From Pecten maximus (taxonomy: Eukaryota): DNA of 64,000 bases. This document shows positions 8,858-42,726 of this stretch, in pieces. Where the stretch lies: assembly GCF_902652985.1 (NCBI RefSeq), contig NC_047016.1, positions 24,180,001 to 24,244,000 on the forward strand. The letters run 5' to 3'. Numbering within the stretch: position 1 is the stretch's first letter; the number at the start of each line of letters is the position of its first letter. The translations under genes were made by a program, and so were the position numbers. The notes under the pieces were generated by a model, which worked only from the letters and a program-made list of their open reading frames with translations, was not told the origin of the DNA and did no database searches.

Positions 8858-11007
8858 TCAGAAGGTGGCCTTGCGGATGACATCAACTGCCATCAACATG
8901 GACACAACCAATCCCCCGCCAAACATGAGCGCCCGCGATGGCTGAGGAATTTGACCTAGGTAAGCAACAGTGTGCATGAGACGACATCCGGTGAAGATCC
9001 GGAAGTACATCGCAGCTGTTGTCGGATCTGGCCCGCTGGCGACGTACAGCAATCCCACCAAAACAAATGTGACCACGTTTTCTAGATCGTTAAGATGGCA
9101 CCTAAAACAAAGAAAACAGATATAGTCTATACAATGTATTGTATTATATCGGTGTGAAGTGACTGATTTTATGTCAATAGAAAGACAACCGTTTAACATC
9201 AATTAACCTAGACAATAGCAATTGATGTTCTGTATCTACAGATATTTCAGATTAAAATTAAAACATATTAAATAAGATACTTGTGAATGAAAACCTGCGA
9301 TCATTTACCGCGAAAATATATCTTCACCTATGGTCACATCCTTAATGAAGATGTCAAGATATTCAGGTTTCTTCTTCATATACAACCCGTAGGTGACACG
9401 CCCCTTCAACCGTGAAGCTGAACCACCACAGTCAATGTGGCAAGTAAAATTATTTTTCCGTGTAGAAATCAATGTAGAAATTCAACTCCGATTCCGTCTA
9501 TAATCGCCTTATCTCTCGCAGATACACTTTACTGTTTTATTCCTTCCCATTTTGCTTCATGAGACAGAGTACATTTTTAATAAACTCTGCGTTGAAGCGG
9601 TACATCTAGAAAATTTGGAAAATAACTCGAAATAAAAAAATAGCGGTAAACTTATAATAGTTGACCTAAGAGGCAAAACCGAAAAAAGAAGGAAACATCC
9701 GTCTTTGAGACGTCACAGAGACGATGAAATCTTAGTGCGGGTTTTAGACAAATTCTCCGACATGGCTCACCTTCTGATGCGCTCCACGGTGGGATCAGTC
9801 AATGTCGGCTTACATTCCTTGTTCATGGCCTTCCCTAGTGCACAGTCCTCGGGGTTAGCGAACACCTGGCAACATACAAGAAAATAACGTTTTTAGTCAC
9901 GCATGAAATAATACTTTGGTTAATAAATATTCAAAAACAATGAGCCACAAGCCTGTTCCGCGCTACCTGCGATAACATAGCTCTGGACGACGGACGGACA
10001 ATTTCTGACAGATGGTCGTTTGCCGAAGAGCAGTATAGTTCTAGTTCCGCGCGTTTCATTCGCCCTTAGGTCATGGCTGCTCCAACTGCACGTATTCCTG
10101 TAATCTCCATGAACTTTTCTTACAGGAAGTCCTGTCTGAGTTTTGCCCGTGTGTTTCCAACGCTTCCACACAAAAACGACGTCTCCTTCGCCCAAACATC
10201 AGGTGTTACACTGTTCGTTACCTTCGAAGAGGATATTGCCAAGAATCGATTCCTGATGAAAGCGGCTCGGTTTATCGTCCAATTTACGTGCTAAAATCCA
10301 TTTCGAATTTAGCGTACAATTTCGGAACGCGAAATGAGTAACATGCTTTGCCGTGCTTCTTTGTTTCTCTCTAAGTTCGTGTAAAATGAACTGTTCTCAC
10401 TGTTCATTCTTATTTTTCCTTCTATCGATTTCATTTTGCTTCACTAATCTCCTTCAGAGGAAATAAAGTTTGATGATGTAGACTGTAACAAATTCTCAAG
10501 TCCCTGTGCCTACCACCAGCCCCGATAATTTAACAAGCGGCCAGTTATTTGTTATTGTGCAACGATTTCAACTAACGCGTAGAAAATATTTTTGCAAAGC
10601 CAAATTCTTAAAACGTTGACTACACAAATGCAAGCCAAATTCTTAAAACGTTGACTACACAAATGCAAGCCAAATTCTTAAAACGTTGACTACACAAATG
10701 CAGGTGAAAGGTAACATCGGGGACAGACGGGCTAGTGCAAATCACGGTTTGGGTTACTCCTATAATATTACAGGTTAACACGACAGACTACACACCTGAC
10801 GTATGTTACACACATGAACCTACATTACCATAGTAACAGTCCGACACACACCTGACGTATGTTACAAACATGAACCTACATTGCTATAGTAACAGTCCGA
10901 CACACACATGAACCTACATTGCTATAGTAACAGTCCGACACACACCTGACGTATGTTAAACACATGAACCTACATTGCTATAGTAACAGTCCAACTTCAC
11001 ACCTGAC

Positions 11008-11320: not shown

Positions 11321-13397
11321 AGCCACATGAACCTACATTGCCCAATTGACCGACGAGGCCAGACTACACAACAGACGTGTATAAAAAGAACCCACAGAAA
11401 AGGTGTGTCACGTGTAACCTGATCCATCTATTCCACCGACACATTAGTAAAGAAAATGTATACTTCTATTAAAAACGTCTGAGTCAGTCTCTGTGTGTTA
11501 CATTTACGTGGACAATTTCACAAAGACCATAACGTCAGTAAGGGTTGAGGCAAATTACGTTTTGGGAATCTACACTATGGCCGACAAGAGCATGACAAAG
11601 ATATCAAATTTCATATCTCTGTGTAACATGTTACAATAATTACAAGAGTTAGCCTATTTATTTTTAATTCGATATTATTTGTTAATGCGTTGCCCCCTTG
11701 TCCCCTACGGATTCATCGGCGTTTCAACTGATTTGGAGTTGGTTTCATTTGACAAGTCGAAGCTACTAGAGCATACTTTACTGTACGTGTAATTAGGAGA
11801 CGAAATGTAAATATATCAAAGGTTTTCAAACTATGGTAAGTAGGATTAGTTTAGTATTGTTCATTGATGGCTGCGCTATATTCGTGCTGATGCCGATATC
11901 ACCTCATGATCACTGAAGCGTACCGCCGAAGATACCCGACAGACACACCACCCGGTCACATGCTGGGATTGGTATTGTGTCGTTGAGACTCTCAAACAAA
12001 AGAGTAATACTTTTATTATTCCATAAACCGTACTAGCGCGATAAACAACTTATTCTGTGTATTCCATAAACCGTACTAGCGCGATAAACAACTTATTCTG
12101 TGTATTCCATAAACCGTACTAGCGCGATAAACAACTTATTCTGTGCATTCCATAAACCGTACTAGCGCGATAAACAACTTATTCTGTGCATTCCATAAAC
12201 CGTACTAGCGCGATAAACAACTTATTCTGTGTATTCCATAAACCGTACTAGCGCGATAAACAACTTATTATGTGTATTCAATAAACCGTACTAGCGCGAT
12301 AAACAACTTATTCTGTGTATTCCATAAACCGTACTAGCGCGATAAACAACTTATTATGTGTATTCAATAAACCGTACTAGCGCGATAAACAACTTATTCT
12401 GTGTATTCCATAAACCGTACTAGCGCGATAAACAACTTATTCTGTGTATTCCATAAACCGTACTAGCGCGATAAACAACTTATTCTGTGTATTCCATAAA
12501 CCGTACTAGCGCGATAAACCGTACTAGCGCGATAAACAACTTATTCTGTGTATTCCATAAACCGTACTAGCGCGATAAACAACTTATTCTGTGTATTCCA
12601 TAAACCGTACTAGCGCGATAAACAACTTATTCTGTGTATTCCTTAAACCGTACTAGCGCGATAAACCGTACTAGCGCGATACACAACTCATTCGGTTTTG
12701 TATTAACTTAAGGCGATAATACAGAGAAGAGGGTTTTCCTATCTTACCATGTGAAAATGTACAAAAAAAAAAGGGGGAAAAGGAAATTCCACATAATTTT
12801 GTTAGGACACCAGTGAGTCATCGTACTTGTTTATACACATGAGTGTATTTATGCTCTGACGAAATTAAAGAACCACGATCGAAAGCGAAGATTTTCAAAT
12901 AGATTTTGAACGTTCCATCATCAACCAGATCACCTGATCCAAATGATATGGTTTTAACTTCACATGCCAATTATATATATGCAATTAATATTGATAATCC
13001 ATTAAAGCAGATATATAGGTCTGGGCTTGCTGGCAGAAATTTCTCCCTCGACAGTGCTCCTGTGTCGGTGTTTAGTTCAACCTGAAGCCTTGCGACTCAT
13101 AAGTAGGCATATTTATATATAGATACATTCGAGATAATCAAATTCAGTTGAGCATCTACATGTAGTTTATCTATGCCAGTGTTTACGATACACGTTAACA
13201 TTCGAGAGGATTGAATAGTGCCTACGTGATCGGTACCAGAACAGGCACGTGATGTCACATCCTGTACTTACCGACTTTCTAATCCGATTAAATGCCGTCA
13301 GCGCACTCATCGACATTGTCTTTACTATGACAACGCCACTGTAAAATGCAAACTGCTTAAACAGTGGATTGTCAAAACTTAGTCCTTGGTCAGCCAT
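8858..13397 (-). CDS. MGST1: Microsomal glutathione S-transferase 1-like (MAPEG), paralogue B, 154 aa, 3 coding exons
   Basis: Exons 13397-13272, 9865-9771 and 9101-8858 (126+95+244=465 nt), GT-AG with matching phases. Motifs VFANPEDC, VERIRRCHLNDLENV, FTGCRLMHTVAY and PQPSRA. Confidence 0.94.
10595..10702. repeat. 35-bp tandem repeat x3
   Basis: gcaagccaaattcttaaaacgttgactacacaaat recurs with a 35-nt period. Confidence 0.9.
10789..11340. repeat. ~56-bp minisatellite with embedded (TA)n microsatellites
   Basis: Unit cacacctgacgtatgtta..acatgaacctacattgctatagtaacagtcc. (TA)n runs at ~11009-11041, ~11152-11164 and ~11274-11317. Confidence 0.9.
12017..12686. repeat. 43-bp minisatellite, ~15 copies
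   Basis: Unit tattccataaaccgtactagcgcgataaacaacttattctgtg; highly homogeneous, with two truncated units. Confidence 0.95.
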
Positions 13398-13639
13398 AAT
13401 TGTGCAGCTTTTGTGGCGAGTAAAATCTCCGAGCTCTAGGTCACGGGTAATACAGGTACACAAGGTGGAACGCCGAACAGTAGCAAATCTATGGCGGCCT
13501 ATACCAGTCGGACAGTTAAACTGACTACGTGTATCGCGCTACAAAGGCACAAAACATTGACATACAAACTGGTCGGTGGTAGCCTACATAGCCTGACGCA
13601 ACACTCTTCGGTTGTATTTTTTTTTTTATTTCTATCAAA

Positions 13640-22919: not shown

Positions 22920-25608
22920 ATGCTGGAAGATGAGGATGATGATGTCATTATCGAGGAAGTGGAGGGCGCTGATGGTACGCCCACCCGACCCCTAACGCTT
23001 GGAGACTTCATCACCGGAGTTCTCAATGAAAAGATATCTATAGGGGAACTCGAGAGCCGGCGGGAAAACTCGTTTGGGATAGCCATGGGCCTCGCCGCCA
23101 GGGTTGTAAACACTGCCTACGGGATTCATCCTTTGTATCCTAAGTACATCTCAACACGAGGAGGCAAGCCCGAACTGGAAAATCTTCGAGCAATCGATGT
23201 CAACAAATTCCAATGCTTTATACCTATTAAGAGACCTGCAAAACCCGATACATTCACGGTGATTATGGCGATTTTGTTGTGACTTTCTATCAAACCTGTG
23301 TAACATGAAAATTTACAAAATGTAAAATATTTACAGAATCCCATTCATTGCCAACTAAATTGATGTTTTTTTTTCTACATGGCATAACAGGTATGACATT
23401 AAATCTCCTTCAATAACGTAACCTTCCCAATGACCATTTCGTACTCATTTGTGTATCATTTGGAAGTTAAAGATTTGATCTGGATCTTATTTTTCAGATG
23501 GTGTACAAAACTCCCAGTGAGTACCCTAACCATAGGATTCTTTTAAGTGTCAACGAGAGCCTGTTTTCTGTGGACAAAATGCAGATCTCCAAAGAGTGGG
23601 GTCATTGTGTGGACACAAACGGCTTTCTTAGACCGGATTTTATCCTTCACTGGTTCAATGACGGTATGTATTGCGTATCAATGTTTCAGTGGTATGTTTC
23701 TATGTGATCAGTCGCAGTTTTTGACATGAGAGGATCTGTATGATTATTAAGGATTTTACATTCTTGAAACAGCTAAGGACATATACAGTCAGTGCTGTTA
23801 GATATAGGGCCACTGACGGACGTTTTGTTCCGTCATCGAACTGAAACGTCGTGTCTCCAAACGGTGACACGACAACAATCGGGTCACATTATATTGTCAA
23901 CGGCGACACAGTATTTTACAACCAACTCATTTCAATGCAAAATGTTTTAAGTGAAAATGGAGACGTCCTCTAATCTTGATTTCTGTCTGCAGGTCTCGCA
24001 GCAGCTGTAGACTTTCTAAGAGAAGCCCGACCCCATAAAGCCAAGAAACACCACACCATGGATATAACACATTCTGCTAAAAAAGACGGAACCTTCTTGG
24101 TCAACTTCTACACAAACCAGTCCATCCAACCACATCTCTTCTTCACCCTCAACATCGTCCCCTGTATTCAAATCGCAGAAGTCCCCAAACAAAGTCGTCT
24201 GCAAGTTCCTATAGCGAGCAGACGACCGTACTACGAATTCCACACAGACTTCAAAAAGCAAATCAAGGACACACTGACACAGGGAGAGAAAATGTTTTAT
24301 CTTGAGGCCACCGTGATGCCATGGACGAACAGTTGTGGATATGATGGCAGTATTGTCTGCTCTTGGGGTCTCAACATAGGCTGTTTAGAGGACAGGGCTC
24401 TTCATTACATATGCCAGATGGCAACTGGGAAGTTTTTCAGAGACGTCATTATGTTGATTGAGAGAATCAAAGACACGCATGCAGTTTGCCTGCATACGCT
24501 TACGAATCGTATCATACAAAATGCCATTTTTTATCAGCACAAGAAAAGTATGGGGGTGGTGAAGTCGCGGTCACGTTGGTTCATTAAAGTGATGGAACGC
24601 ATCTCGTCCCACATGAAGTCAGGGGTATTCCCGGCGTTCTTCCAGAGTAAATACAATTTGCTGTGCGATTTCAAGCCAGATGTTCTGTCCGGCACGGCTG
24701 CAGAATTGGACAACATGCTTGAAAGCTTGAACGATATCCCAGAGAATATATATGTATACACTGGTCTGGAAAGTGAATTGGAAGAAATCGACGAAACCAA
24801 ACCGTACAGAGATGATCCACCTAAGGTAAAAACTGTAGAGGAACAAACACACGCGTCAAGAGGGGAGGTCGAGGAGGATTCGTTGTTTGATAGGACAATA
24901 ACGACTATGATGAGTGAAACGACAGATCGTTCATACGATGACACGTTCTGTGATGAAAGCGACGATGAACCAATTTTCATCACCGGGCCAGTGAGATACG
25001 GGTATAAAAGGCACGAAATACGCCCAGAGTCGAAGATGTCGGGGCAAACGAACTCCCGTTCCTCATCAAAAATGTCGGGCAAAGTGTCGGCTAGTAAAGG
25101 ATCTACGAATTCTAGCTCGTTATCCAGCAAGTTTGGACAGTCAGCAAGATCAGTGGATAAGGTTTCGGTAAACGGTTCAATCAAGTCAATCGATACTACT
25201 TCAAGAAATGGTTCCATCAGATCCTCTGATGTTGTGTCTGGGAAACTGTCCAACAAACCATTTTCGAGATTATCACGGAATAGTTCATTATTATCAATAG
25301 CTACTGTGAGTTCCGCATCTAACGTGTCTGTCAATGGATTGAACTGTTCAGTCGGTAAAGCTTCCGAAAATATCTCTAAAGGTTCAGTAGGGAAGGTTTC
25401 TGGGCCTGAATCGTTAAATACGACATCAAAAAGCGCTGGACACGTACACAGTTCTACCCCTTCACAATCCAAAACGTCGCTTCAGTCCTCAACTCATTCT
25501 TTAAACACGGTCCCAAGGCCGGCCGTAACTCTCCCGTCACTAAAAGGTCCCGGGGAGACCAAACAAGACATCGTATCCAGAAATCTGTCGCCAATTTCAA
25601 AGAAATAA
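22920..25608 (+). CDS. Mab-21 / cGAS-like receptor (cGLR) family protein, 706 aa, apparently catalytically degenerate, with a Ser-rich C-terminal tail
   Basis: Exons 22920-23258, 23498-23663 and 23993-25608 (339+166+1616=2121 nt), GT-AG, intron phases 0 and 1, with an in-frame TGA upstream of the ATG. Mab-21-fold motifs occur in order: ENLRAIDVNKFQCFI, GFLRP..ILHWF, TLNIVPCI, SWGLNIGCLED, RDVIMLIERIKD, LTNRIIQNAIFY, FPAFFQSKYNLL. Confidence 0.8.
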
Positions 25609-28600
25609 TGATCTACGAATTCTAGGTCGATTATGTGATTATGTGTTGATTAACTTAACTTGGATGTGAATGTGTTTTCAGTATTATCCGTGTTTGGTTC
25701 AGATAAGTTCGTCAATATGTCTAGTGTAGGATGTGGGATTAAAGTTTCAACTGCTAGAAGTAAGGAATGCCTGCAAGTTTTAAAAGTTTGTCATTTACTT
25801 GCGAGTATAAGTTATCTTCATATCGATTTCATCAAAGTCATTTAATATACATTAAGTTTTAGCGAGCGGTGGTAGTATCACAAAAGGTGACCATACACAT
25901 CATGCAGAGGTCACTGTATCTTTGTGATAAATTTAACTTTTATTTTAATTGACAACTTCCTCTTAGAGAGGGTTCCTAACATCGATCACCAATAGTTAGA
26001 CATTCAGCGAATATTTTGTATGCTGTTAGATTAAATGAGTAATATCAAAGGGCAATCTAAGCAAATATTGTCACCTGCATGTTCACACGGGATTTCTCTT
26101 ATCCTAATGTATCCTTACTTCCTGAAACTGAAAACATAGTCATCACAATAGCTAGGTAAGAGTTTTGATTACTTACAAGGATTATGTATTAAGAGGTGAC
26201 CATGGCTTCAACACCATTTTCTTCAACATTGCCATAAAAAGCTAGAGTCAGTAGGGAACTTTTTAGGGGCCTAATGAAATATTGGTCTATAATGTTGGTG
26301 CTTGATTTGATGGGGCCAAACCCACATAACATTTAATACACTGTGGACTTTGCAAATTTCATTCAAGCTTGAATTGTTCAAATTTTACATGAGAATGTAA
26401 GACTTAATTGAAGCAACACTGTAGTAAGTACTGTTGTTTTAAACAACCTTTTCTAGCAAGTCAAATTTTATTTTTTTAGTTTTTAAGGCGTGGCCAATAC
26501 TAATGACAGTAATGAGCTGATGAGAAATGACAACAATATTTGGTGTAATGACTGAAATTTATTGATACTCAAACACTTTCAACAAAACATGTACAATTAT
26601 ATATGTGTATGTATCACATAGGTTTTGTACAATAATAACAATGTGAACAGTTTTTTTCAGATTTTTGCGGAGAACGCAAGACAGATTAACATTTCTGTTC
26701 AATAATTATTGTAACTTTCTCATACCAAATGGTAACTTTTACTTACACAAGTCATTTTGAATATCTTTCCAATATTCTATGTCTGAAAAATTATTAGGCA
26801 TTAAAAATTGGAAGTTATTGATCAGAAGTGCTAAATATTACTAAGTTGTTGTTCACATACTGATGTGATACGATAGATACTTAACATATAACCACCATGA
26901 TTTTAACATCCTATACCCATTTTAGGGTAAAAAATTAATTAATTGAAAACAATATCATCTATCGTCATTTACAAATAATATTCTCAAATTAATCAAAAAA
27001 ATTATAATAATATATTCATAAATAAAAAATTACAATTTAACTTTTTTAAATTACACTGTTTTTTTTAAACAATAATATTTCAGAAGCTAACTTTAATACA
27101 GAGTAATGCCGGATTAAAAAAAAAAAGGAAAATTATTCCAACATTTTGACAGTATGAGCCTTTCATATGAATGTTTTAAATAACATGCTTATGATGCTTC
27201 ATTAGTCTGTTAAGTATTTTATCAAATCAAAATGTTATATTAAAGCACTATTACACATTTCAACAAATGTACATGTTAGAAGTACATACATACAGAACTT
27301 AGTTTAACTTTGTGACATATACCCTGTAAAAGAGTACATAGTAGACATCTATATTGTGGAAGATATCCTAGTGTAGAATAATTCTCATCATCACTGTGAC
27401 TAGATGGAATCTTTTTACAATTGATGGAAGTCAGGTCATATTTTTTTTTTTAAAGAATGGATGGTTGTTATCATTACCCCCCTTTTCAAAATATTTCCTA
27501 CTGTGTAGCACTAGAACTAAGGCTCCATATGGAAATGGTATGACATTCCAAAAATAACATATACATATCTGAGCAATGATTTCGATATGCAAATATTTTG
27601 TACAAAACTGTTGCCCTTGAAAAGGAAATTAAAAATGTCTTTAGTTTTGACATTTAAGAAATTAAGAAATTATCCTGATATCCTGTTAGACAATTTTTAT
27701 CAAAACAATACTTGAAAAATTTGACTGTTTCATCAAAACTGACTGGGATGAATTTTAATGAGATCCTGTGACATATATGATAAATCAGGTAGTGGTTGAT
27801 GTCATAACTCATAGAATTAATATTCTTATTCATCAATCTTTAATATTAATCAACCTTTTAATTAAGCAAAATATGAATAATTATATCTTTTGTTTTAATT
27901 ACACACTGTACCATACATGCATGCACCTGGATTCTACAAGTTGCGGAATACTTCCTCGATCCTTCAGGGATTTATCAGCATCAATATCTTATTCTATTTT
28001 TGTAACTTTAAATTTTATTACATTATCAAATTTTAAAATATCTGTATAATGAGGAGTTGATGCACCACAAAAAATGCCATGGAAATTATATACAGTAGAT
28101 CTATCATGACAAATAGGTGTAATACCTATATCTGGTAATGTATATTATGGTGTAAATTAAAATCCACAGATTTCGATCCCATTTACTTCTACTTACATCC
28201 AACACATTTTTACGGACAAAATATTTTTATTTTGAATTTGATTTTTGCTAAAAAGCAACTTCTTGGTTTGTCATTGAAAATACTTGTACCTGTAATATAT
28301 TTTAGTAAGTCTAGTCTCATATTCAAATTAGAAACTGGTGTCAAATTAAAATAGGGGTTTCTGCTGTCACATAAACATTTCAATACCCTAGTATCTGAAC
28401 AAAATGGCTGTATTCCTAGACACAATGTCACATATAGATTTTGAAAGACCTTGATGACAGAAACTTCTCCTGAAGGACATTTCTGATGATTAAAAAAATT
28501 GTATATATGCTTGAAAATAGACTTATCAAAGACTTTGCGATCATTTTATCTTTGTACATGTATATATTCATTGTATCAACATTTAGGGGATGTTGGACAA

Positions 28601-29348: not shown

Positions 29349-32300
29349 TTATGGTAATGCTGTTAGGATGATTTGTGAAATATGCTGGTCAACTGTTGTG
29401 GGAGACTCGCCAAGGTGGTGGAGTAGAATATCAAAGTAACGTACAGCACTCTCCTCCTTAAAGGAATCTGCTATATGATGATGTCTTCTTGCTAAACTGG
29501 AAAAAAAAATGTATTCAGAGCAAGATCAGTATTATTCACTGAAAGTTTAGTACAAAAGCATAATAAATCTTTGTAAAAGTCTAAATTGCAATCCAAATAT
29601 AAACCTGAACAGTCAGTACATGAGGCTCTTTTGAGGCTGAATTTAAGTTACTTGAGTGAAAGGCAAGTGTAAATTATCTTGTTTTATGATGCTACCAATT
29701 CAGTTCAATAATACCACTGTATTTTAACTTTGGGGCAAGTTATTTTGAACATTAATTTGATGACCAGAAATGCTGAAATTTTACTCCTTGCCCTGCCTTA
29801 AAATCAGCTACCCAGTATATCTGAGTGGTGAATCCTATAAAGTCAGATTACTTAATAGTGGTGATATTTCAAACTAAATTTGATTAGTAGTCATGATACA
29901 AATGGAAATATGTGCATCTGTTTCAGACATTGGATACATAACTTTTACATCATTGTAAATGGCAGAATGCACTGACTTTGGTCTGGTTTATTTTGTTTAA
30001 CGTCCTACTAACAACCAGGGTCATTTAAGGACGTGCGAAGCTTTGGAGGCAGAGGAAAGCTGGAGTGCCCGGCCCATGGTCAGTACCAGGCAACTGCCCC
30101 ACATGGGTTTCAAACTTGCAACTTGGAGGTTGAGGGCTAGTGATAAAGTGTCGTGACACCTTAACCTCTCGGCCACCACGACCCCTTAAAGATGCACTGA
30201 CAAATGGACATTGGATTTACTTACATTTTGATGAGGATGAGACAGACCAAAGTCCACTCAGCTGGTCTAAACAAGATGTTCTGATTACTGAGGCTGCAAA
30301 ACCAAAACAAAGTCAATTATCAGTGATGCTTCATGAGTTTTGATAGAAATATTCATGTACCCTATATATTGATTACAGATTGTCTGACGAAAATATCTTA
30401 AACTGGAATTTTGTTTTTATATATATACTTGGTGTTGAAGTAGTGTTTGGCCCTCAAATTATTAAGAATTTTTTTCTGAGACTGGTATCAATAAATCATA
30501 ACAGTAACAAAGGAGTATGTTACTCCACAGATCAATTTAGCAGTTTAAATTTACAGAGAGATATAACATTGAAACAGTCGATCCTAGAAGCATTGCGAAA
30601 TTTACAAATGGATTGGCTAATTTGTTATTTAAGTAGTTGCTAATTTGTTATTTAATTGGTGGCTAATTGTTATTTAAGTAGTTGCTAATTTGTTATTTAA
30701 TTGGTGGCTAATTGTTATTTAAGTGGATGGCAATGTACTGACCAGTGTTATACTTAAACACCTGCCACCATTAGATGTGGAGTACTTTACCTGAATGTTA
30801 ACACCAGTTGCCTTACTTCTGAAAACACCTCCTGCATCGACAGCTTCAATGGAACCAGAAGTTCAGGCATTCTGTTACAGAAGATTTAAAACTAGAGAAT
30901 GTGTATACACCATAATTATATGCCCCACCCTGACGAAATGTGGATGTCCTCAACCTGATGGAATGTGTGTATCCTCAACCTGGTGGAATGTGTATGTCCC
31001 CAATCTGATGGAATGTATACACTGTATCCCCACCCTGATGGAATGTGTACGTCCCCAATCTGATGGAATGTGTATGTCCCCACCCTGATGGAATGTGTGT
31101 ATCCTCACTCTGGTGGAATGTGTACGTCCCCACCCTGATGGAATATGTGTACGTCCTCACCCTGGTGGAATGTGTATGTCCCCAACCTGATGGAATGTGT
31201 ATGTCCTCACCCTAGTGGAATGTGTACGTCCCCACCCTGATGGAATGTGTATGTCCCCACCCTGATGGAATGTGTACGTTCCCAACCTGGTGGAATGTGT
31301 ATATCCCAACCCTGATGGAATGTGTATGTCCCCACCCTGATGGAATGTGTATATCCCCACCCTGATGGAATGTGTATGTCCCCACCCTGGTGGAATGTGT
31401 ATATCCCCACCCTGATGGAATGTGTATGTCCCCACCCTGATGGAATGTGTATGTCCCCAACCTGATGGAATGTGTATATCCCCACCCTGATGGAATGTGT
31501 GTATCCTCACCCTGATGGAATATGTATATCCCTACCCTGATGGTGAGGTGTATATCCCCACCCTGATGGAATGTGTATATCCCAACCCTGATGGAATGTG
31601 TACGTCCCCACCCTGATGGAATGTGTATGTCCCCACCCTGATGGAATATGTATATCCCCACCCTGATGGAATGTGTATACACTGTATCCCCACCCTGATG
31701 GAATGTGTATATCCCCACCCTGATGGAATGTGTATGTCCCCACCCTGAAGGAATGTGTATACACTGTATCCCCACCCTGATGGAATGTGTATATCCCCAA
31801 CCTTATGTAATGTGTATGTCCAAACCTTGATGGAATGTGCATATCCCCACCCTGATGGAATGTGTATATCCCCACCCTGATGGAATGTGTATATCCCCAC
31901 CCTGATGGAATGTGTATATCCCCACCCTGATGGAATGTGTATACACTGTATCCCCACCCTGATGGAATGTGTATATCCCCACCCTGATGGAATGTGTATA
32001 TACCCACCCTGATGGAATGTGCATATCCCCACCCTGATGGAATGTGTATATCCCCACCCTGATGGAATGTGTATATCCCCACCCTGATGGAATGTGTATA
32101 TACCCACCCTGATGGAATGTGTATATCCCCACCCTGATGGAATGTGTATACACTGTATCCCCACCCTGATGGAATGTGTATGTCCCCACCCTGATGGAAT
32201 GTGTATACACTGTATCCCCACCCTGATGGAACATGTACAGGCATGCTCCTATCACAGGTAATAGTTGAGGAGTTTAACTTCAGCCTGTAGATTTATGAGA

Positions 32301-35300
32301 CAAGATAACAGTTAAATTACTCACGAGTGATTTAGTTTTTCCATAACAATTTTCTTTCTGATCAACATCTGATCATGACTGTCCACTGTAGGAAGGTGGA
32401 CTTCTGACTGTTTCTCTGCTGCCTGGTGTAAAACAAATATAGGTACCTAAAATTCATTCTTATATTTCAATGAATTGCATCCACACTTAAATTGAGAATT
32501 CATACTTATATTTCAATGAACTGCATCCACACTTAAATTGAGAATATACTCCTCCTTCAGACTTAATCTAAGAGGAACATACATATGAAATTTGAAAAGA
32601 TCTAAGCGATGAGAAATGGTGATAACAAACTTCAATTGTCAAAATCAATTAATTTTTCTGATCAGTTTCAAAATAACCATGTATAATGAGGGACCAAAGG
32701 ACACCTAAACATGACAAGAGGCCCATGGGCCTTAAGGGTAACCTGAGATTTGGGGACCAAATAATTCACAAGTTTGGTTGACCTTTAACCATAGAAGCTT
32801 CCTTTCATTGAATTTGGTTTAGCGGTTTTGAAAAAGAAGAAGTTGGAAAATGTAAATTGTTTACAGACGCACGACAACAGACAAAAGGCGATTAGATAGA
32901 ATAGGTCACTTGAGACTTCGTCAGATCTGTGTTGTTTACCAGGTGCAGGGCCCTAAGTTTTTACCTACCACTTCATTGATCATTCCTGTCACATTTGTCT
33001 TGCCCTGTAGGTACTGTGCCACCCTTTGACCAAACTCTTCTGTTTCCTCTTTCAGTATGCTGTAATTAGGAACTGGTTTCTCTGGAAACGATGAATCCTC
33101 AATCCTTGATTCTCCTACAAGGTCATCAAGGTCATTTTCCCTGGCATCAATTCGCTGACAAAGTTTAGTATATTTTAACTGAAATTCTGTCTCGTCAATT
33201 CCGTCATGTGGAGTATCTGATTCCTGTGGTGATATAAGCTCAATAGTTTCCTTGGTAACCCACTGTTTCAATGTTTGACACAGAATCTTTATCACAGACT
33301 TGGAAAGTGCCTTAGGGGTTTTATCAGGAGGTTTTAATCTTGGTGCTTGTAAATGTGGAGTGGAATGAGATATCTGTGTGTGACTTTCTGATGGTTTGTT
33401 TAGGACAGGACTTGTTCTAATGTCACCCTGTAATTCTGAATCCTGACAATCATCCGAATCTGAAGCAGAATTCACATTAACGTTTCCTGACTCAGAACAA
33501 GGAGTTTTATAGGACTCTTTTGTAGGATTTTTATTTCCATGGTGATCAGCTCCTGATGCAGAATCTTCATCATCATCTGAATCTTTTGAGAGTTTCATTG
33601 GCTGGATATCTGCCATTTTACCAAGTAAATGTTTTCGTTTACTCAACAAAAGCTCAAGATATTTCATCTTTGATTCTGTTGTCATAGCATCACCAGACTC
33701 TTTTTTTACTTGGGAATCATCATTATTGTTAATTTTGGAGGAGTCGTCTTTGTTTCCAACTTTTTTTTCATCAATTGCCACAGAAATGTTTTCCTGGTGA
33801 GTACTGGGTACACTTGAATTTTTGTTTTTGTTGGAAGAAAGAGTGTTATCACTTATCCTCAGGGACTGTAGATTTATTTGATCTGGATCATTGGGACTCT
33901 TGTTTGCAGGTTTATCTTTACTTTTTGTCTCGTATTTCTCCAGCCTTTCCAGTGACTGTACTTCTTTTCTTATCTCTGGTGTGACTGAAATTACTTCATC
34001 TCCTTCCAACCCACTGGAAATATGAAGCAGAGTGAACAAGACATTAAGATAATTTCTCAAAAACAATGATTAACCTGAGGCTAGAGATGGCCTAATTTCT
34101 TTCATGCATACATCTAAAACAAGCATATGCTTAATCTGCTATGAAAATTATAAACTGATTCAATATTAAGGAGCATCCGTTGGTTGATTAAGCCATATAC
34201 ATTGTAGCATGCATGCTGTCGCTACAAAACATCTGCTCATCAACAATGCAAGGGAGATAATCACTCCAGATTTTATCATGAGTCGATTCACCATTTGTGA
34301 AACAATTTAATGAAAAACTTATGCCAATTTGTGAAATTTCATCTTGACTCCTCATTATCAATGTATTCTCAAATCTTAACGTATGTTTGGTGAAATTTTA
34401 TAACTACTTGGTGGCTGAAATTTAACCTTTACCATTTTAAGTTGTCTAATGCAAGAATTTTTACATTACTCAATTTCAGGTCTGGATAAGATAACATTAT
34501 CACCTAGAGATGAAATAATTTATCAAAATATTGGCAAATAAAAATTGTTTACAGACAATCAACAATAGTCATCTCCTGCTGTAACAATGAAATGCACAAT
34601 GCAGAGGTGTAAAAATCTAAAAATAAACAGATATAAAATAGCATATTGAGTCATCAATATTGTTGATGATGGCTCCTGTGCATATGGTGTCAATGTTGAA
34701 AATGGAATTCATTTTTTCTTTCAATGTCTACTTTATTTGAATATTCGACATCACATCATAACAGTTTATAACCTTCTAGGATATGTTAATCTACATGTTT
34801 TATTACATGGTGCCACTGACTTGCCTACTGATATAATAGAATCATTCTTATTAACTCTAGTTCTTATCTATAAAAAAGTAAACACTTTCAAATTTATAAA
34901 TAATAATGTCTATACATTCATTTATTTACATGTATATGAAAGTTCTGTCAATTGAGAATACATCATGAATAGATGGTAGTGAGTAAGAATGTGTTTTCTT
35001 TGATTATATATAATACCAAAACTTCTATAATTTTCCTACTGCATAATACTTGAGCTATATCCATATGCTCATAAAACTGGAAATCTACAGGGAAGGACTA
35101 ATATAGGCTGAGCCTGTTGTCCAATCCCTTTTGCCAATACTAAATATTGATAATTTTCTATGTAAGAATACTTTGTTTTATATTTGTTGTGTTGACAATA
35201 AAGTATTTTGAAATTGAAATCAATGTTTTTGATAGTTTTAAAGTGTCACGTTAGTGCTAATTTGTCTTGCACTTACTACAGAGATCCCAGTGGCAGGAGT

Positions 35301-38300
35301 TTAATGTTTATTTTTAGACAAGTGTCGCCCCTTGATATAAGACTTACCTCGTGGCTCCCAGTGACAGGAGTTTAATGTTTATTTTTAGACAAGTGTCGCC
35401 CCTTGATATAAGACTTACCTCGTGGCTCCCAGTGACAGGAGTTTAATGTTTATTTTTAGACAAGTGTCGCCCCTTGATATAAGACTTACCTCGTGGCTCC
35501 CAGTGACAGGAGTTTAAATCCTTTGTTAGGCATATGTTCCCGGGTCCAGAGAGGAGCGGTCAACAGTTGTCGCCTGAAGTACTGAGATGCTGTGAAGCAC
35601 TGGTTACTGCAAAAATTCTGAGAAACCACAAAACAGATGTACATAGTGATACATGTATGTTACTTATCTTATGTTTTACTCAAACTTTAAACATTCGAAA
35701 CATTTTATCTTATTCTCTAGCATGATTTTTTTAATACAAATACTTGTTCATTTCATTGTTCTGTTATAAAAAAATTGAAAGACTACAATACTGGTAATGA
35801 ATATTGAAAGACTGCAATACTGGTAATGAATATTGAAAGACTGCCATACTGGTAATGAACATTAAAAGACTGCAATACTGGTAATGAATATTGAAAGACT
35901 GCAATACTGGTAATGAATATTGAAAGACTGCAATACTGGTAATGAATATTGAAAGACTGCAATACTGGTAATGAACATTGAAAGACTGCAATACTGGTAA
36001 TGAATATTGAAAGACTGCAATACTGGTAATGAATATTGAAAGACTGCAATACTGGTAATGAATATTGAAAGACTGCAATACTGGTAATGAATATTGAAAG
36101 ACTGCAATACTGGTAATGAATATTGAAAGACTGCCATACTGGTAATGAACATTGAAAGACTGCAATACTGGTAATGAATATTGAAAGACTGCAATACTGG
36201 TAATGAATATTGAAAGACTACAATATTGGTAATGAACACTGAGTTTATACCTTAAATAAACTTTGAATGAAACTTATTTAAAAGCATAGTTTGATAAATA
36301 TACCCTTTCTATTTATCTAAGGATCGAGGGAGTTAAGAAATAGGTTTATTTGGAATAAAAACCGAAATGCATTCGGATAAACCAGGAAGTGGTTTGTGCA
36401 CTTCACTTTTCAGTCTAATCAGCAGACTGATTTATTAGTTCTTTCAATCTTAATAGCTTACCAGTAATTTTAAAACTTGAAAGGAACAATTTACAATTTG
36501 ATTACGACAAAAATCATGCTGTGTTTTTCATGTGCCATTCACTATTAAGAAGCTCATTTCAAACATGTTTCCAATAATTAATTATGCTGTTCGATATTAA
36601 ACAGCAAACAACATGTGGCAATATCAGGTCACAATATCTGTGTAAGATATTGTCCGAAAAGTTTTTTTACAAAAAAAATGAGTTGTTTGTGTATGACATT
36701 ATCAAAACATGATTCAATTTTTTTGTCAAACACTTAACAGAATAAATAATAAACCAATTAAAAAATTGTGTTACAACCAAAACTAAATATTACATGGTAG
36801 GGTTGAATTGAAGATATAACAACTACAAAATGTAAGTGATTAATATAAGAATGAGGTGGCTCAATACCTTCCTGGCTGTAATGTCGTACACTTTGTTACT
36901 CCTGGTAGAAATATGGTACTTTTGCTTTGGAATCTGCAAACATAAGAAACCTCAAATATTTATTTATTTTTTTGACATACCAGCTACATGTATACATCAA
37001 TTTGTTTCACATCAGGGATTGATTTAATTATTCTATTTGAAAACTACAAGTAGAATCACACACAATTCGAAAATCATTAATTCTTTTTCTACCAAATGAC
37101 AAGAAATGATTATAAATACAATTTGTGCACAGGATACAATTTAAAAATTATATCTTCTGAGTATATATATATCATATTTGTACCTATACACAACAGGTAT
37201 ACATATATATAGAAGGTTGGACTAACCCTGGTACACCACTCCTGTAGACAAACCTAACCCTGGTACACCACTCCTGTAGACAAACCTAACCCTGGTACAC
37301 CACTCCTGTAGACAAACCTAACCCTGGTACACCACTCCTGTAGACAAACCTAACCCTGGTACACCACTCCTGTAGACAAACGTTACCCTGGTACACCACT
37401 CCTGTAGACAAACCTTACCCTGGTACACCACTCCTGTAGACAAACGTTACCCTGGTACACCACTCCTGTAGACAAACGTTACCCTGGTACACCACTCCTG
37501 TAGACAAACCTAACCCTGGTACACCACTCCTGTAAACAAACCTGGTACACCACTCCTGTAGACAAACCTAACCCTGGTACATCACTCCTGTAGACAAACA
37601 TTACCCTGGTACACCACTCCTGTAGACAAACCTAACCCTGGTACACCACTCCTGTAGACAAACCTAACCCTGGTACACCACTCCTGTAGACAAACCTAAC
37701 CCTGGTACACCACTCCTGTAGACAAACTTAACCCTGGTACACCACTCCTGTAGACAACCTAACCCTGGTACACCACTCTGTAGACAAACCTAACCCTGGT
37801 ACACCACTCCTGTAGACAAACCTAACCCTGGTACACCACTCCTGTAGAAACCTAACCTGGTACACCACTCCTGTAGACAAACCTAACCCTGGTACACTAC
37901 TCCTGTAGACAAACCTAACCCTGGTACACCACTCCTGTAGACAAACCTAACCCTGGTACACCACTCCTGTAGACAAACCTAACCCTGGTACACCACTCCT
38001 GTAGACAAACCTAACCCTGGTACACCACTCTGTAGACAAACCTAACCCTGGTACACCACTCCTGTAGACAAACCTAACCCTGGTACACCACTCCTGTAGA
38101 CAAACCTAACCCTGGTACACCACTCCTGTAGACAAACCTAACCCTGGTACACCACTCCTGTAGACAAACCTAACCCTGGTACACCACTCTGTAGACAAAC
38201 CTAACCCTGGTACACCACTCCTGTAGACAAACCTAACCCTGGTACACCACTCCTGTAGACAAACCTAACCCTGGTACACCACTCCTGTAGACAAACCTAA

Positions 38301-41300
38301 CCCTGGGACACCACTCCTGTAGACAAACTTTACCCTGATACACCACTCCTGTAGACACATAGTCCTAAATCATACTTACTTGTCCTAATGGGTTTTGACA
38401 GATGGGATAGCCACACAGTTTAGCTATCGCTCGCTCCTCTATTATATCATCGTAGTGATTCGGACATATATGGAGAGCCTGGAATTAGGAGATGATTACA
38501 CATGTACATAGTCTTCAATGCATATTAAGTATTATTATAGAGTGTATAACTCCATATGGATAGTTTAATATAAAGTTTCAGTAAGTTATGGACTTGGGGG
38601 GAATAACACTACTGCTGGGTGTATAGTTTGAGGTATAATCCATCCATTTATCAAGACACAAGTACTTACAGTTACATAAGTTTAGTAGATAGGCCTATTG
38701 TAATTAGTTAGAAAACATCTTAAGTGGTGTACAGATGGTATGAATAAATAGCCTAATAAAAGGTTAACCTGGTAAAAAGAAACAGTGTAGATTGAAGTGA
38801 TGTGATGGCAGTGTGTGTATACCCATATAGTAGTCAAAACTATATACACTGATAGTTGAAGCAGGAATATGTAGGAAAATAATATGTGAAAGAACAGGGA
38901 AAATCACATTCCTGCTTAGCGCCCCTTTGGCCTTTGGAACCGTAAATAAATAATTCCAAGCAAGCACTTGTGGTAATGAAAACATACATGAAAGTAGAGT
39001 TTGATTGGCCAACCGTAACTTGAGTTATAACAACGAAACAATTTTTTTAAATGTTATTAACAGATTTTTTATTAATAGTAATAGATTTTCTATCTATTGT
39101 AACAGTGACCTTGACCTTTGACCTTTTGACCAGTAAAAACAATGCAATGCAAGCATTTGAAGTAAAGAAAAACTGCACGAAAATAGAGTTTGATGGCCAA
39201 AAAGAAATTGAGTTATCACAAGAAAACAAATTTATATTTTCAGTAACACAGACCTTGACCTTCAACCTTCGAACCTGAAAAGCACCTGCAAGCAGGCATT
39301 TTCGGTAAGGAAGATCTGCATGAAGTTTGAGTTTCTCTGCCCAAAAGAACTTGAATTATCACAAGGAAACAAATTTTCTATTTTAGTAACAATGACCTGA
39401 CCTGAATGTAGGGCAAGATTATTCATTTGAACAAACTTGGAAGCCCTTCAAACCAGCATGCTACAGACCCACTTGCATTTTTGGCCAGTGAGCTTAAAGT
39501 TGAATTGAAAACAAGGCACATATTTTGAACCTATAATAGGATAACATGACACTTACATCTTGCAGCAGAGAAGTTTCAGCAACAGGGCCATCTAACATTT
39601 TTTCAACAATGTGAAAAGCTCTTTTCTCACATTCTTGTCGTCTTCGGAGATCATGCTCCACTTTCTTTCTCCGTTCTGCTTCAATATCACTGTTAAAACA
39701 TAAAAAATGACACTTTTTTTTAAAAAAGAAGCATGGCCAAAATTTGAAATGCAATAAACCCAAATCATGAATTATGGAAGATTGGATTATAGAGCAGATG
39801 TTAAGCCTTACTATAGTAGCTTGGTATATATGTCAGTCAGAGATATCACAAACACATTGGCCACATGTAAATCGATCTCTATAATAATTATAAGGTGACC
39901 ATGACAGTACCCACATCAGATCACCAAACAAGCATTTTAATTTGTTCATTTGTTGAAAATCTAGAAGATGATATACATGTAGCTATAGATCAATTGAGGG
40001 ATTACTTATATCAAAAAAAGAATATCGAAAGGTGTAAATTATCACCTGAAGTACATGTGACTATTTTTAGAATACTCAGAAATCATCAATTAGCACTTTC
40101 GGTTTTTTTCAAATGATGGTACTCAAAATGGATCACAGACTGAATTTTTCAATATTGTACATTTCAAATGATCTTTGGAATTTGTATTTAGTAGTAGTGT
40201 TGGGAATCGGTTGAAATTCTCTGATCAATCATCACTTGTGTGTAACCAATCGATGATTGATTAAAATCAATTAATTTCCAAATGTATTTTTTGTATTCAT
40301 GTCTCAATATTTTGTGAAATGCTTTCAACAACAATTTCAGTAACTAATAAACTGTTATACCTACAGCTACATGTATACCATCTTCCTGTGTGTTTATTGA
40401 ATTATTACACAGAAAAAATGAACCAAAATTGTCAAGTTTTAAAAAAATTGATTCAACACAGAAAAAACAACAAAAGGATTGTTCATTGGAGTATTAAGCT
40501 AACTGGAAATTTTGGCAGTCTATTATATATACTTTGAAAACGAAAGTAGAACTGTGACTTACCATTGAAGGAATATGACTTTCTGTACATTTTACAAATA
40601 GTTTTCGTCATATCTAAAGTATCTCTACTTAAAGGACCTTCTGCTTCTAGTTTTCATTAAAAACCAAAATGTTTTCATACAATAGACCCTGCCCGTTTAC
40701 CGGGAAGATCGTATACGTTAACGTTGCTTCCATGGCTAGTGGCTTATGATCTTACAAACAAAATCTTAGTCATCGGTACGTTTACATTCCTCCTTGTATT
40801 ACAACACTGTACCACTTATTGCGACGCATGATTTTGTATGATACAAGCATAACCGTTTCCCGTAATCGACTGTGTTGTAGACACTGTCAAGCTTAATTTG
40901 CGTATTCTTATCTGCAACCTGGCTAATATATTTTCATAAAACATGATGTAGGGCACATCCGATAAAACTCGATTACAGATTTCTTACTTGATTAATTGAT
41001 CAAATGTCTCAAACAAGTGATCGACCTCAATTAATCGGAACATCATGATCACTAGTATTTAGAAAAGAATTTTTATCATCAAGATTTTTTTCTTTCGGTT
41101 GAAAATAAACACAATCATTGTCGTACACAAATCATTAATTAACAACGTTAACAATATAACAGAAGTCAAGACTTTAAAATATTTATTCTGGTGTCAATAA
41201 ACTTTGTTTGTATATGCAAACCCTAGAGTTTATTTAAAATTGCTTGGTATTGGATTTAACAACACAAAACTTTGGTTTGGTTTAATTTGGTTTGTTTTGT

Positions 41301-42473
41301 TTAACGTCCTATTAACAGCCAGGGTCATTTAAGGACGAGCCAGGTTATGGAGGTGGAGGAAAGGAGTTAAGCTGGAGTACTGATCCAATTTGGGTTCTTT
41401 AATAGATATATACAATTTGTATATCACTATAAGAGCTCTAAATGGCTGGACGCTCTAACCATTTGAGCCACCTGGCCTATAACATTTAGCCCAGTCTAAT
41501 TCTGCTACATTCGTCCATCCTTCAACAAAGTCTTCGACAATGAAGACACACATGAGACCCTATATCACCTCCATAGGTATTTATAGTTGGGCTCCAAATT
41601 AAATGTAACAGGAGAGGAAAAATACAACAACCAGACTGGGACTCAAAACTCCAGACGAAGGCTCTAACCTTTGAGCTACCTGGTCATCGGCATTCAGCCC
41701 AGTGCAGTTCCTCTTCATCTGTACTAAACTGACTTGACATTGTCTTGGATAAAAAATATAGTCTTTTATGTTACAAATGCATTATACAACTTTGTGTTTC
41801 TATTTCAAATTATCCTGCATTTTAGCAATGTATTTATCGCTCAAAGTGGTACTGTTACTCAAATGCAGGACTATTACTCATATGCGGGGTTGTGCCTTGC
41901 AGGGCCCAGCTGTTCAAATGGTGATCATTAGCGTAATCACTTAATAAATGAAAGTCTAATTTCTCTTTTACCACAAAACCTGGGTGCGTGCTTTAATTAT
42001 AGGCAGGTAGGAACTTCAGGAAGACTGATTAAAGTGATATAGTCTCATAAAACTTTATCAAGTTAGGCCTAGTTTTATCAGAAATCATTTTATCATGATT
42101 TAAAAACTGTTATAAACTGTGATTAGCTGAACCACCTTTGGGACATCTAAGCCCTTATGTTATCATGATTACAGCACAGGTACTTAGGGTAAGAAATTAC
42201 ATTTGTATATATATACTATATAGCCTCGTATTACTATATAAAATATAGAGCTCTATTTTATATAGTAATACGAGGCTATATAGTATATATATACAAATGT
42301 AATTTCTTACCCCAAGTACCTATGGATTACAGGTAACAGGTAGGCAGTTAGTTACCATCACAGTAGAATTGTTTGATTCACACGTAAAACTTTTGAGTTT
42401 TAGAGACATACCTTCGTTCTTTGGAACCGCCACTAAGCTTCGACTTAGTTTCCTCCGCACGGAATATAGACAT
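29349..42473 (-). CDS. RPAP2: RNA polymerase II CTD phosphatase / RNAP II-associated protein 2 (Rtr1 family), 642 aa, 10 coding exons
   Basis: Exons 42473-42412, 39689-39557, 38478-38380, 36933-36868, 35617-35490, 34013-32969, 32422-32325, 30871-30791, 30293-30225 and 29496-29349 (1929 nt), GT-AG with consistent phases. RTR1-type Zn finger [20 protein letters not shown]...[26 protein letters not shown]-terminal motifs [17 protein letters not shown] and [11 protein letters not shown]. Confidence 0.93.
29978..30185 (-). mobile_element. tRNA-derived V-domain SINE copy (internally deleted)
   Basis: Homologous to the copy at 48462-48682: tttgtttaacgtccta..aca.ccagggtcatttaaggacgtg...ggtcagtacc.ggcaactg...gacaccttaacc.ctc.gccacc. 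Confidence 0.75.
30921..32232. repeat. 25-bp minisatellite, ~50 copies, in an RPAP2 intron
   Basis: Unit ccccaccctgatggaatgtgtat(a/g)t. It explains the repetitive ORFs with 25-aa periodicity in several frames. Confidence 0.95.
32711..32926 (-). mobile_element. Short non-autonomous Helentron/HINE-like repeat
   Basis: One end is acaagaggcccatgggcc...acctgag (with a palindrome) and the other is ggtcacttgagacttcgtcag. Related termini occur at ~57445-57468 (ccaggtgagcgagacaggtccccttgtt) and ~4613. Confidence 0.5.
35286..35516. repeat. 71-bp tandem repeat (~3.2 copies) overlapping an RPAP2 exon/intron boundary
   Basis: gacttacctcgtggctcccagtgacaggag starts at 35341, 35412 and 35483. Confidence 0.95.
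35774..36237. repeat. 29-bp minisatellite, ~16 copies
   Basis: Unit attgaaagactgcaatactggtaatgaat. Confidence 0.95.
37222..38356. repeat. 32-bp minisatellite, ~35 copies
   Basis: Unit accctggtacaccactcctgtagacaaaccta. Confidence 0.95.
41270..41380 (-). mobile_element. 5'-truncated V-SINE fragment (3' tail)
   Basis: ttttgtttaacgtcctattaacagccagggtcatttaaggacg is identical to the tail of the 48462 copy. Confidence 0.7.
42178..42321. repeat. ~144-bp near-perfect palindrome (fold-back/MITE-like)
   Basis: Arms aggtactt(a/g)gggtaagaaattacatttgtatatatatactatatagcctcgtattactatataaaa.. centred on gagctc (42248-42253). Confidence 0.92.
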
Positions 42474-42726
42474 TTCGACAATGTTGGCAATGTCAGCGAA
42501 ATATCACGTTTTGTAGGGCGCCGCCATCTTTTTTGTAGTCTCTAAACCAAATTAATTGTTTACAAATACATCAATATTCTGATTAACAAGTTGTCTTGAT
42601 TACGCTTAGTCATTACAAAAAAATATAATATTGTTACATACTATGTAATATAAGTTATATGTTCCAAAGTTACTATGAAATCAACATGATTATATTCATT
42701 TTGAGAGTAACAAAACATCAACAAAT
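42474..42726. promoter_or_regulatory. Putative bidirectional promoter shared by RPAP2 and GTF3C5, containing a YY1/TISU-type motif
   Basis: The divergent ATGs are only 253 bp apart. ccgccatctt (AAGATGGCGG on the minus strand) is at 42521-42530. Confidence 0.7.

What the first reader, a model, noticed from the sequence alone, without database searches (positions are those of the whole stretch)
22920..25608. cGAS-like (Mab-21) pseudo-enzyme: all three catalytic acidic residues appear replaced
Seen: an intact 706-aa spliced ORF with the Mab-21 motif order. Aligned by eye to human cGAS, GSYYEHVKISAPNEFDVMF corresponds to GKPELENLRAIDVNKFQCFI (E225 to K, D227 to Q, GS loop altered). SVDITLAL corresponds to TLNIVPCI (D319 to N), WRLSFSHIE to WGLNIGCLE, SSYHVKTAFF to TNRIIQNAIF (conserved Y and K lost), and ENYFIPEFNLF to PAFFQSKYNLL. 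Known: cGLRs need the E/D-x-D...D metal triad to make cyclic dinucleotides, and the family is greatly expanded in bivalves. Inactive NTase-fold members such as MiD49/51 act as adaptors. Inference: this is a maintained, catalytically dead cGLR that may serve as a decoy, regulator or scaffold in invertebrate cGLR-STING signalling, or has been repurposed.
Basis: partly seen in the sequence, partly recalled or inferred. Interest (0 to 1): 0.7.

Follow-up and report, generated by a model that had tools for sequence, protein, structure and literature searches.

The report
Ancient catalytically dead bivalve Mab-21 protein
This intact single-copy scallop gene encodes a protein predicted to have the fold of the immune enzyme cGAS but lacking all three of its catalytic acidic residues, a loss largely shared by its relatives across bivalves and a brachiopod, so it likely works as a protein-binding adaptor rather than an enzyme.

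Summary
The three-exon gene gives a 706-aa protein identical to Pecten maximus LOC117321580. Residues ~25-428 are predicted to adopt the Mab-21/cGAS fold (best match human MAB21L1, Z 31, rmsd 2.7 A over 332 residues); the rest is a predicted disordered acidic and Ser-rich tail. The triad reads K96/Q98/N222; the GS loop and the lobe-2 Y/K are also gone. It is not a decayed or recent copy from the bivalve cGLR expansion: one copy was found in the genome, and it belongs to a separate clade (99/99) spanning scallops, oysters, pearl oyster, unionids, a clam and Lingula. Acids 1 and 3 are absent in 14 of 14 members examined; acid 2 survives in 5, so loss was probably stepwise. K and Q are not conserved; N mostly is. 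By the published definition it is not a cGLR. Dead Mab-21-fold adaptors are known (MiD51, shrimp Mab21-IKKe), but my searches found no paper on this subfamily. Best reading: a soluble non-catalytic adaptor, partner unknown; a cGLR-STING decoy role has no direct support. The scan earlier noted a similar but different worm case (third acid only).

The parts
22920..23258 (+). Coding exon 1 (aa 1-113): acidic N-terminus, predicted spine helix 38-69, degenerate GS loop, triad sites 1 and 2
   Evidence: scallop orthologues start at the same Met
23166..23171 (+). K83-P84 at the position of the G[SG] activation-loop motif
   Evidence: no G[SG] in any of the 13 of 14 members with residues there
23205..23207 (+). 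K96, at cGAS E225 / MAB21L1 E73
   Evidence: acidic in 0 of 14 members
23211..23213 (+). Q98, at cGAS D227 / MAB21L1 E75
   Evidence: acidic in 5 of 14 members
23229..23997 (+). Best-conserved block of the subfamily, aa 104-170 (spans exons 1-3); aa 123-170 map to MAB21L1 95-136, the lobe-1 protrusion
   Evidence: mean column conservation 0.55 against 0.43 (aa 77-99) and 0.44 (aa 171-427) in 9 divergent members
23498..23663 (+). Coding exon 2 (aa 114-169)
   Evidence: matched by Mactra and Pinctada relatives
23993..25608 (+). Coding exon 3 (aa 169-706 and stop)
24085..24087 (+). D200 of the DGT turn; acidic in 14 of 14 members, not a triad position
24151..24153 (+). N222, at cGAS D319 / MAB21L1 Q169
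   Evidence: N in 12 and S in 2 of 14 members
24439..24705 (+). Mab-21_C helical lobe (aa 318-406); R341 and Q344 replace the conserved Y and K
24769..24987 (+). Acidic segment aa 428-500 (24 D/E), mostly low pLDDT; relatives also carry acidic tails
24988..25605 (+). Ser-rich basic tail aa 501-706, predicted disordered; seen in this form only in the scallop sequences

Best explanation
The gene encodes a protein predicted to have the Mab-21/cGAS fold that lacks the three metal-binding acids and the GS loop, so it is likely catalytically dead and likely acts as a soluble adaptor that binds a conserved partner protein through its lobe-1 protrusion (about aa 104-170). Shown: intact gene, loss of the motifs, one copy found, a distinct clade across bivalves and Lingula, no strongly hydrophobic segment. 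Inferred: no two-metal catalysis; probably weak or no NTP binding, as the lobe-2 Y/K are lost too; acids 1 and 3 lost early and acid 2 later on the pteriomorph branch; partner binding through the protrusion; tail as a regulatory or low-affinity binding region. The partner and pathway are not identified.
For: Fold: pLDDT at or above 50 over aa 17-434, mostly 70-96; Foldseek E 2.7e-14 to MAB21L1; VIA Z 31.0, rmsd 2.7 A, 332 aligned, against Z 27.2, rmsd 3.4 A, 328 aligned for the best human cGAS. Triad: 9 of 14 members have no acid and 5 of 14 have one; by contrast 25 of 30 other Mab-21 loci examined in this genome have G[SG] plus three acids. Maintenance: domain 89-91% identical to Ylistrum and Argopecten against 76-80% for the tail; oyster comparisons 38-46 differences in 401 domain sites against 21-29 in 114 tail sites. 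Whole proteins of relatives lie on 2-3 kb Logan contigs, which suggests spliced transcripts. Clade 99/99 with Lingula outside, unionid plus clam on one side and scallop plus oysters on the other, as expected from the bivalve species tree (recalled). Precedent for the surface: MAB21L1 G96-Q138 is an oligomer interface and the MiD51 equivalent recruits Drp1 (PMC4897736 passages; PMC3926961 passages). Highest 19-residue hydropathy 1.12.
Against: No binding or activity data. The extra conservation of aa 104-170 is modest (0.55 against 0.44), and part of it (W..CV...G.L) is shared with other family members, so it may be structural. Identity to oysters and pearl oyster is 33-39% and to Mactra, Potamilus and Lingula 20-25%, far below the conservation of the MAB21L orthologue, so the partner surface is not tightly frozen. 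Invariant acids at 121, 139 and 200 could not be placed in 3D. No dN/dS could be computed. Lingula sits on a long branch.
Confidence: 0.62

Rival explanations
1. It is an innate-immune regulator: a decoy or co-receptor for active cGLRs or STING, or a direct activator of TBK1/IKKe as reported for shrimp Mab21 proteins. This is a specific form of the adaptor model.
For: Shrimp Mab21 proteins made no cGAMP in the assays used and bound and activated IKKe (PMC12928593 passages). The genome holds at least 87 PF03281 and 121 PF20266 matches. Divergence between orders is fast for a single-copy gene.
Against: One copy found, while active cGLRs expanded; grouping with four expanded cGLRs rejected (p-AU 0.002). 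Neighbours are MAPEG, RPAP2 and Tau95 genes, not immune genes. No expression or induction data.
Confidence: 0.22
2. It is a non-catalytic ligand binder: it holds a nucleotide, dinucleotide or RNA (as MiD51 binds ADP/GDP and MAB21L1 binds CTP and ssRNA) and acts as a sensor or buffer.
For: N at the third site in 12 of 14, a basic residue (R) at position 90 in most members and an invariant acid at 200 suggest constraint near the cleft; the domain is net basic, pI 8.9. Precedents.
Against: The lobe-2 Y and K and the GS loop are lost and variable. No electrostatic or pocket analysis was possible.
Confidence: 0.15
3. It is still an enzyme, with a rearranged site or unusual chemistry.
For: Invariant acids at 121, 139 and 200 in 14 of 14 members.
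Against: These lie outside the triad strands by alignment; a Lys occupies the first metal site; E200Q/D202N alone inactivates pig cGAS (passage); the sites drift freely (K, I, T, V, H, S).
Confidence: 0.05
4. It is a decaying duplicate of a cGLR.
For: No PF03281 hit; 11-14% identity to solved relatives.
Against: Intact frame in scallops, oysters, unionids, clam and Lingula; domain more conserved than tail.
Confidence: 0.02

Closest known systems
MAB21L1/MAB21L2 (Mab-21 cell-fate proteins; PDB 5eog, 5eom)
   Same: Best structural match (Z 31.0, rmsd 2.7 A, 332 residues); no canonical GS loop; amide at the third site (Q169 against N222); no NTase activity seen for MAB21L1. Sister grouping with the scallop MAB21L is not rejected (p-AU 0.064) but not shown.
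   Different: MAB21L1 keeps E73/E75 and the lobe-2 Y/K and is extremely conserved; the genome has its own true orthologue (L002). This protein is about 13% identical, has three coding exons and a 280-aa tail.
cGAS and cGLRs (human cGAS, Sp-cGLR1 8gjy, Cv-cGLR1 8gjw, Tc-cGLR 7lt2)
   Same: Two-lobed caged NTase fold and motif order; profile hit to 8gjy E 2.5e-7; Z 25-28.
   Different: No G[SG] loop and no triad, so it fails criterion 1 of Li et al.; outside the cGLR groups sampled from this genome.
MiD49/MiD51 (MIEF2/MIEF1)
   Same: Dead Mab-21-fold adaptor with at most one acid left; binds its partner through the lobe-1 protrusion; Z 25.9, rmsd 3.4 A, 317 aligned.
   Different: MiD51 has a transmembrane anchor and binds ADP/GDP; here no hydrophobic segment and no MID51-like_C hit.
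Shrimp LvMab21-1/2/3
   Same: Invertebrate Mab21 proteins reported to lack essential NTase residues and to act by protein binding (IKKe).
   Different: Reported to cluster with human cGAS; relationship to this subfamily not tested, as their sequences were not fetched.
TMEM102, ITPRIP, ITPRIPL1/2, C2orf54/MAB21L4
   Same: Listed as Mab-21 group members, a group in which many likely lack enzymatic function (PMC2794190 passages); a TMEM102 cluster is a lower-ranked ESM Atlas neighbour.
   Different: No orthology shown; several are membrane-associated (recalled).

Membership tests
Mab-21/cGAS-fold superfamily | N-terminal NTase lobe plus C-terminal helical lobe in the caged architecture | tested here: met
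   AlphaFold2 model and fold searches cover aa 26-428; Z 31.0, rmsd 2.7 A, 332 aligned to MAB21L1
Mab-21/cGAS-fold superfamily | Pfam Mab-21_C (PF20266) | tested here: inconclusive
   23.4 bits against cut-off 24.1, E 7e-5, whole protein; 25.7 bits for the fragment; 15 of 17 relatives match at E up to 0.1, best 1.9e-11
Mab-21/cGAS-fold superfamily | Pfam Mab-21 NTase domain (PF03281) | tested here: not met
   No hit; ESM Atlas feature neighbours do carry it (score 0.96)
cGLR (Li et al. definition) | h[QT]GS / G[SG] activation-loop motif | tested here: not met
   K83-P84; absent in all members with residues there
cGLR (Li et al. definition) | [DE]h[DE]...h[DE]h catalytic triad | tested here: not met
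   K96/Q98/N222
cGLR (Li et al. definition) | Homology over both lobes and structural homology to cGAS | tested here: met
cGLR (Li et al. definition) | Ligand-activated cyclic dinucleotide synthesis | not testable with these tools
   needs biochemistry
MAB21L1/2 orthologue | Very high identity to human MAB21L1 with E73/E75 | tested here: not met
   12-14% identity; the true orthologue is L002
MiD49/51 | N-terminal transmembrane anchor | tested here: not met
   highest 19-residue Kyte-Doolittle mean 1.12
MiD49/51 | ADP/GDP binding and Drp1 recruitment | not testable with these tools
   needs experiments

The most novel reading that the evidence does not exclude
A roughly 500-million-year-old, mostly single-copy pseudo-cGLR lineage of bivalves and brachiopods that became a dedicated non-catalytic control point (co-receptor, brake or direct TBK1/IKKe activator) for the hundred-plus active cGLRs of these animals, invisible to surveys that filter on an intact active site.
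Probability: 0.2. Interest if true: 0.75.

Novelty: new variant of a known kind. Interest (0 to 1): 0.45.

Why it matters
The main cGLR survey kept only proteins with complete active sites, and neither Pfam scan of the genome lists this gene, so old dead branches of the family are likely undercounted. This one offers a natural series (one acid left in Lingula, clam and unionids; none in scallops and oysters) for asking how a cGAS-fold enzyme becomes an adaptor. As a single-copy gene in farmed bivalves it is easy to knock down, unlike the expanded cGLRs. Dead Mab-21-fold proteins are a known kind, so the concept itself is not surprising.

Tried and rejected
Single-sequence search of exon 3 against PDB gave only chance hits to uL18m; the four-scallop profile likewise. 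The word-based search with the 17-sequence profile returned only 8 proteins, the named ones all oyster or pearl oyster, and the Lingula query returned only itself; these searches are insensitive, so absence from gastropods, cephalopods, annelids or vertebrates is not shown. Two metagenome scans for orthologue DNA found nothing, so no dN/dS and no synteny test. Sequencing runs: no RNA holder listed; 4 of 24 listed runs, one study, guessed RNA, hold part of the stretch. Their contigs cover parts of exon 3 and downstream DNA with no splice joint; strand is unknown and the convergent RPAP2 gene could contribute, so this is not used as evidence. Three read differences in the CDS all lie in the tail (two missense, one silent): too few to use. 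Nesting in an intron of RPAP2 was considered and rejected: the RPAP2-like exons end near 29.35 kb (the last exons are identified from recall, not by Pfam). Literature: no paper held any of six locus identifiers; searches listed no paper on this subfamily. The library lacks most subscription journals, and I did not open any supplements, including Table S1 of Li et al. Look-ups of earlier findings by sequence and by genome returned nothing.

Full report
Gene model. The + strand has three coding exons, 22920-23258, 23498-23663 and 23993-25608, with canonical GT/AG ends; joined they give 706 aa and a single stop. A 706-aa database protein matches 100% over the searched region and is named LOC117321580 of Pecten maximus (P0001); its full sequence reads as the translation. 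Two of the three scallop relatives start at the same Met and all three end identically; a member of the P0002 cluster is named Argopecten irradians. The flanks are MAPEG-family genes on the left, and an RPAP2 gene (minus strand, convergent) and a Tau95 gene on the right.

Fold. Pfam gives only a borderline Mab-21_C match and no PF03281 match. A 17-sequence profile finds Sp-cGLR1 (E 2.5e-7), MAB21L1 (1.2e-5), beetle cGLR, MB21D2, cGAS and MiD51 in the PDB. AlphaFold2 on a 37-sequence alignment gives a confident domain over about aa 17-434 and a disordered tail. Foldseek ranks MAB21L1 first (E 2.7e-14). VIA-align gives MAB21L1 Z 31.0 (rmsd 2.7 A, 332 aligned), Sp-cGLR1 27.9 (3.4 A, 325), human cGAS 27.2 (3.4 A, 328) and MiD51 25.9 (3.4 A, 317). 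The ESM Atlas agrees for this protein and for the Lingula relative (TM 0.71/0.85 to a MAB21L2 cluster).

Active site. I used proteins from the same genome as bridges. L003 aligns to human cGAS across GSY...EFD and the third Asp; L002 is the MAB21L1/2 orthologue (E 4e-199). In the joint alignment K83-P84 sit on GS, K96/Q98/N222 on E/D/D, and R341/Q344 on the Y and K of SYHxK. By L002 numbering these are MAB21L1 E73, E75 and Q169, which PMC4897736 (passages read) equates with the cGAS triad; it also notes that an E-to-Q/D-to-N double mutant of pig cGAS is inactive. hhalign gives the same register, and K96/Q98 and N222 lie on predicted strands 96-103 and 217-229. I could not inspect coordinates, so whether the invariant acids E121, D139 or D200 approach the cleft is open.

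Evolution. A full HMMER scan with exon 3 gave 27 proteins at E up to 0.001. Those I could name are from Pinctada (three paralogues), Crassostrea, Saccostrea, Ostrea, Potamilus, Sinanodonta, Mactra and Lingula; many others are unnamed fragments. Exon 3 and the Mactra and Pinctada relatives find only this locus in the genome; the Lingula protein finds it first and two generic Mab-21 loci after it. The genome otherwise has at least 87 PF03281 and 121 PF20266 matches, neither list including this gene. Of the 30 best PF03281 loci (30 of 87 examined, a sample biased to canonical members), 25 have G[SG] and three acids, one is the E/E/Q MAB21L orthologue, and four could not be called. In a tree of 8 subfamily members and 13 own-genome Mab-21 proteins, the subfamily is one side of a branch at 99/99, with Lingula outermost, unionid plus clam on one side and scallop plus oysters on the other (a quick tree of 33 rows under a mixture model agrees). 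The tree is midpoint-rooted, has long branches and contains no vertebrate sequences. Holding the subfamily with four expanded cGLRs is rejected (p-AU 0.002); holding it with MAB21L is not (0.064).

Pattern of loss. Among 14 near-full-length members (chosen for covering the N-lobe; fragments and most allelic variants left out), site 1 is acidic in 0, site 2 in 5 (Lingula, Mactra, one unnamed relative of it, two unionids) and site 3 in 0 (N 12, S 2). All 9 members on the scallop-oyster side have no acid. Site 1 drifts (K, I, T, V, H, S). The simplest reading is early loss of acids 1 and 3 and later loss of acid 2. The protein is kept: the domain is 91% and 89% identical to Argopecten and Ylistrum against 80% and 76% for the tail, with the same contrast among oysters. 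Between orders identity falls to 33-39%, and to 20-25% for Mactra, Potamilus and Lingula. No orthologue DNA could be fetched, so there is no dN/dS.

Mechanism. Without metal ligands, GS loop or lobe-2 Y/K, nucleotidyl transfer is very unlikely (inference from established NTase chemistry). The best-conserved block is aa 104-170 (0.55 against 0.43-0.44). It maps onto MAB21L1 residues 95-136; PMC4897736 describes G96-Q138 as the inter-ring interface and notes that the matching MiD51 region is needed to recruit Drp1, and PMC3926961 (passages) places Drp1 recruitment in this lobe-1 protrusion, independent of nucleotide binding. I therefore favour a soluble adaptor (no hydrophobic anchor) using this surface, at about 0.6. 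The margin is modest and part of the block is a family-wide structural motif. An immune role is possible: shrimp Mab21 proteins that made no cGAMP activate IKKe by binding (PMC12928593, passages). But single-copy status, separation from the expanded cGLRs and housekeeping neighbours give it no direct support (about 0.2).

Novelty. Non-catalytic Mab-21 members were predicted in 2009 (PMC2794190, passages) and shown for MiD51. The cGLR survey (PMC9980059, passages) required a complete active site, so this protein fails membership and would have been left out. Seven literature searches listed nothing on this subfamily or its locus identifiers; supplements and subscription journals were not covered. 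Verdict: real, correctly observed, an apparently undescribed old subfamily of a known kind of pseudoenzyme; interest 0.45.

Noticed in passing
window 3596-3865, 8861-9202 and 13170-13538 (minus strand): At least two MAPEG-domain exons (Pfam PF01124) and an MGST1-like first exon (recalled, no Pfam hit): probably a small tandem set of microsomal glutathione transferase genes.
   Followed up: partly
window 29352-42541 (minus) and 42679-48423 onward (plus): An RPAP2/Rtr1 gene (PF04181) lies head to head with a TFIIIC Tau95 (GTF3C5-like) gene, within a few hundred bases; RPAP2 is convergent with the Mab-21 gene.
   Followed up: partly
window 50896-51504 and 54909-55517: A 609-bp direct duplicate at 99.8% identity, flanking a tandem array at 53.3-54.5 kb whose unit matches its own reverse complement; a recent exon duplication or an assembly artefact.
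   Followed up: no
window 4938-5519 (minus): Mariner/Mos1-like transposase remnant (HTH_48 and weak DDE_3).
   Followed up: no
L002 (G000:C6:21241780-21245328): Single-exon MAB21L1/2 orthologue, very close to human MAB21L1 (E 4e-199), with E/E/Q at the triad.
   Followed up: partly
L003, L004, L007, L008 (G000:C3:37.48-37.51 Mb): Cluster of four compact 375-380-aa cGAS-like ORFs with full GS motif and triad, closest to Sp-cGLR1: good candidates for active scallop cGLRs.
   Followed up: partly
P0009, P0012, P0014: Pinctada imbricata has three paralogues of the dead subfamily, all with the same longest-contig length, suggesting local duplication; the only expansion seen.
   Followed up: no
P0028 (unnamed ENA cluster of 8): A distant relative (21% identity, E 5e-4) with S at the third site; may mark a wider range for the subfamily.
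   Followed up: no
window 25613-25660: Contigs from two runs carry deletions of about 22-24 bases just after the stop codon: an allelic indel in the presumed 3' UTR.
   Followed up: no
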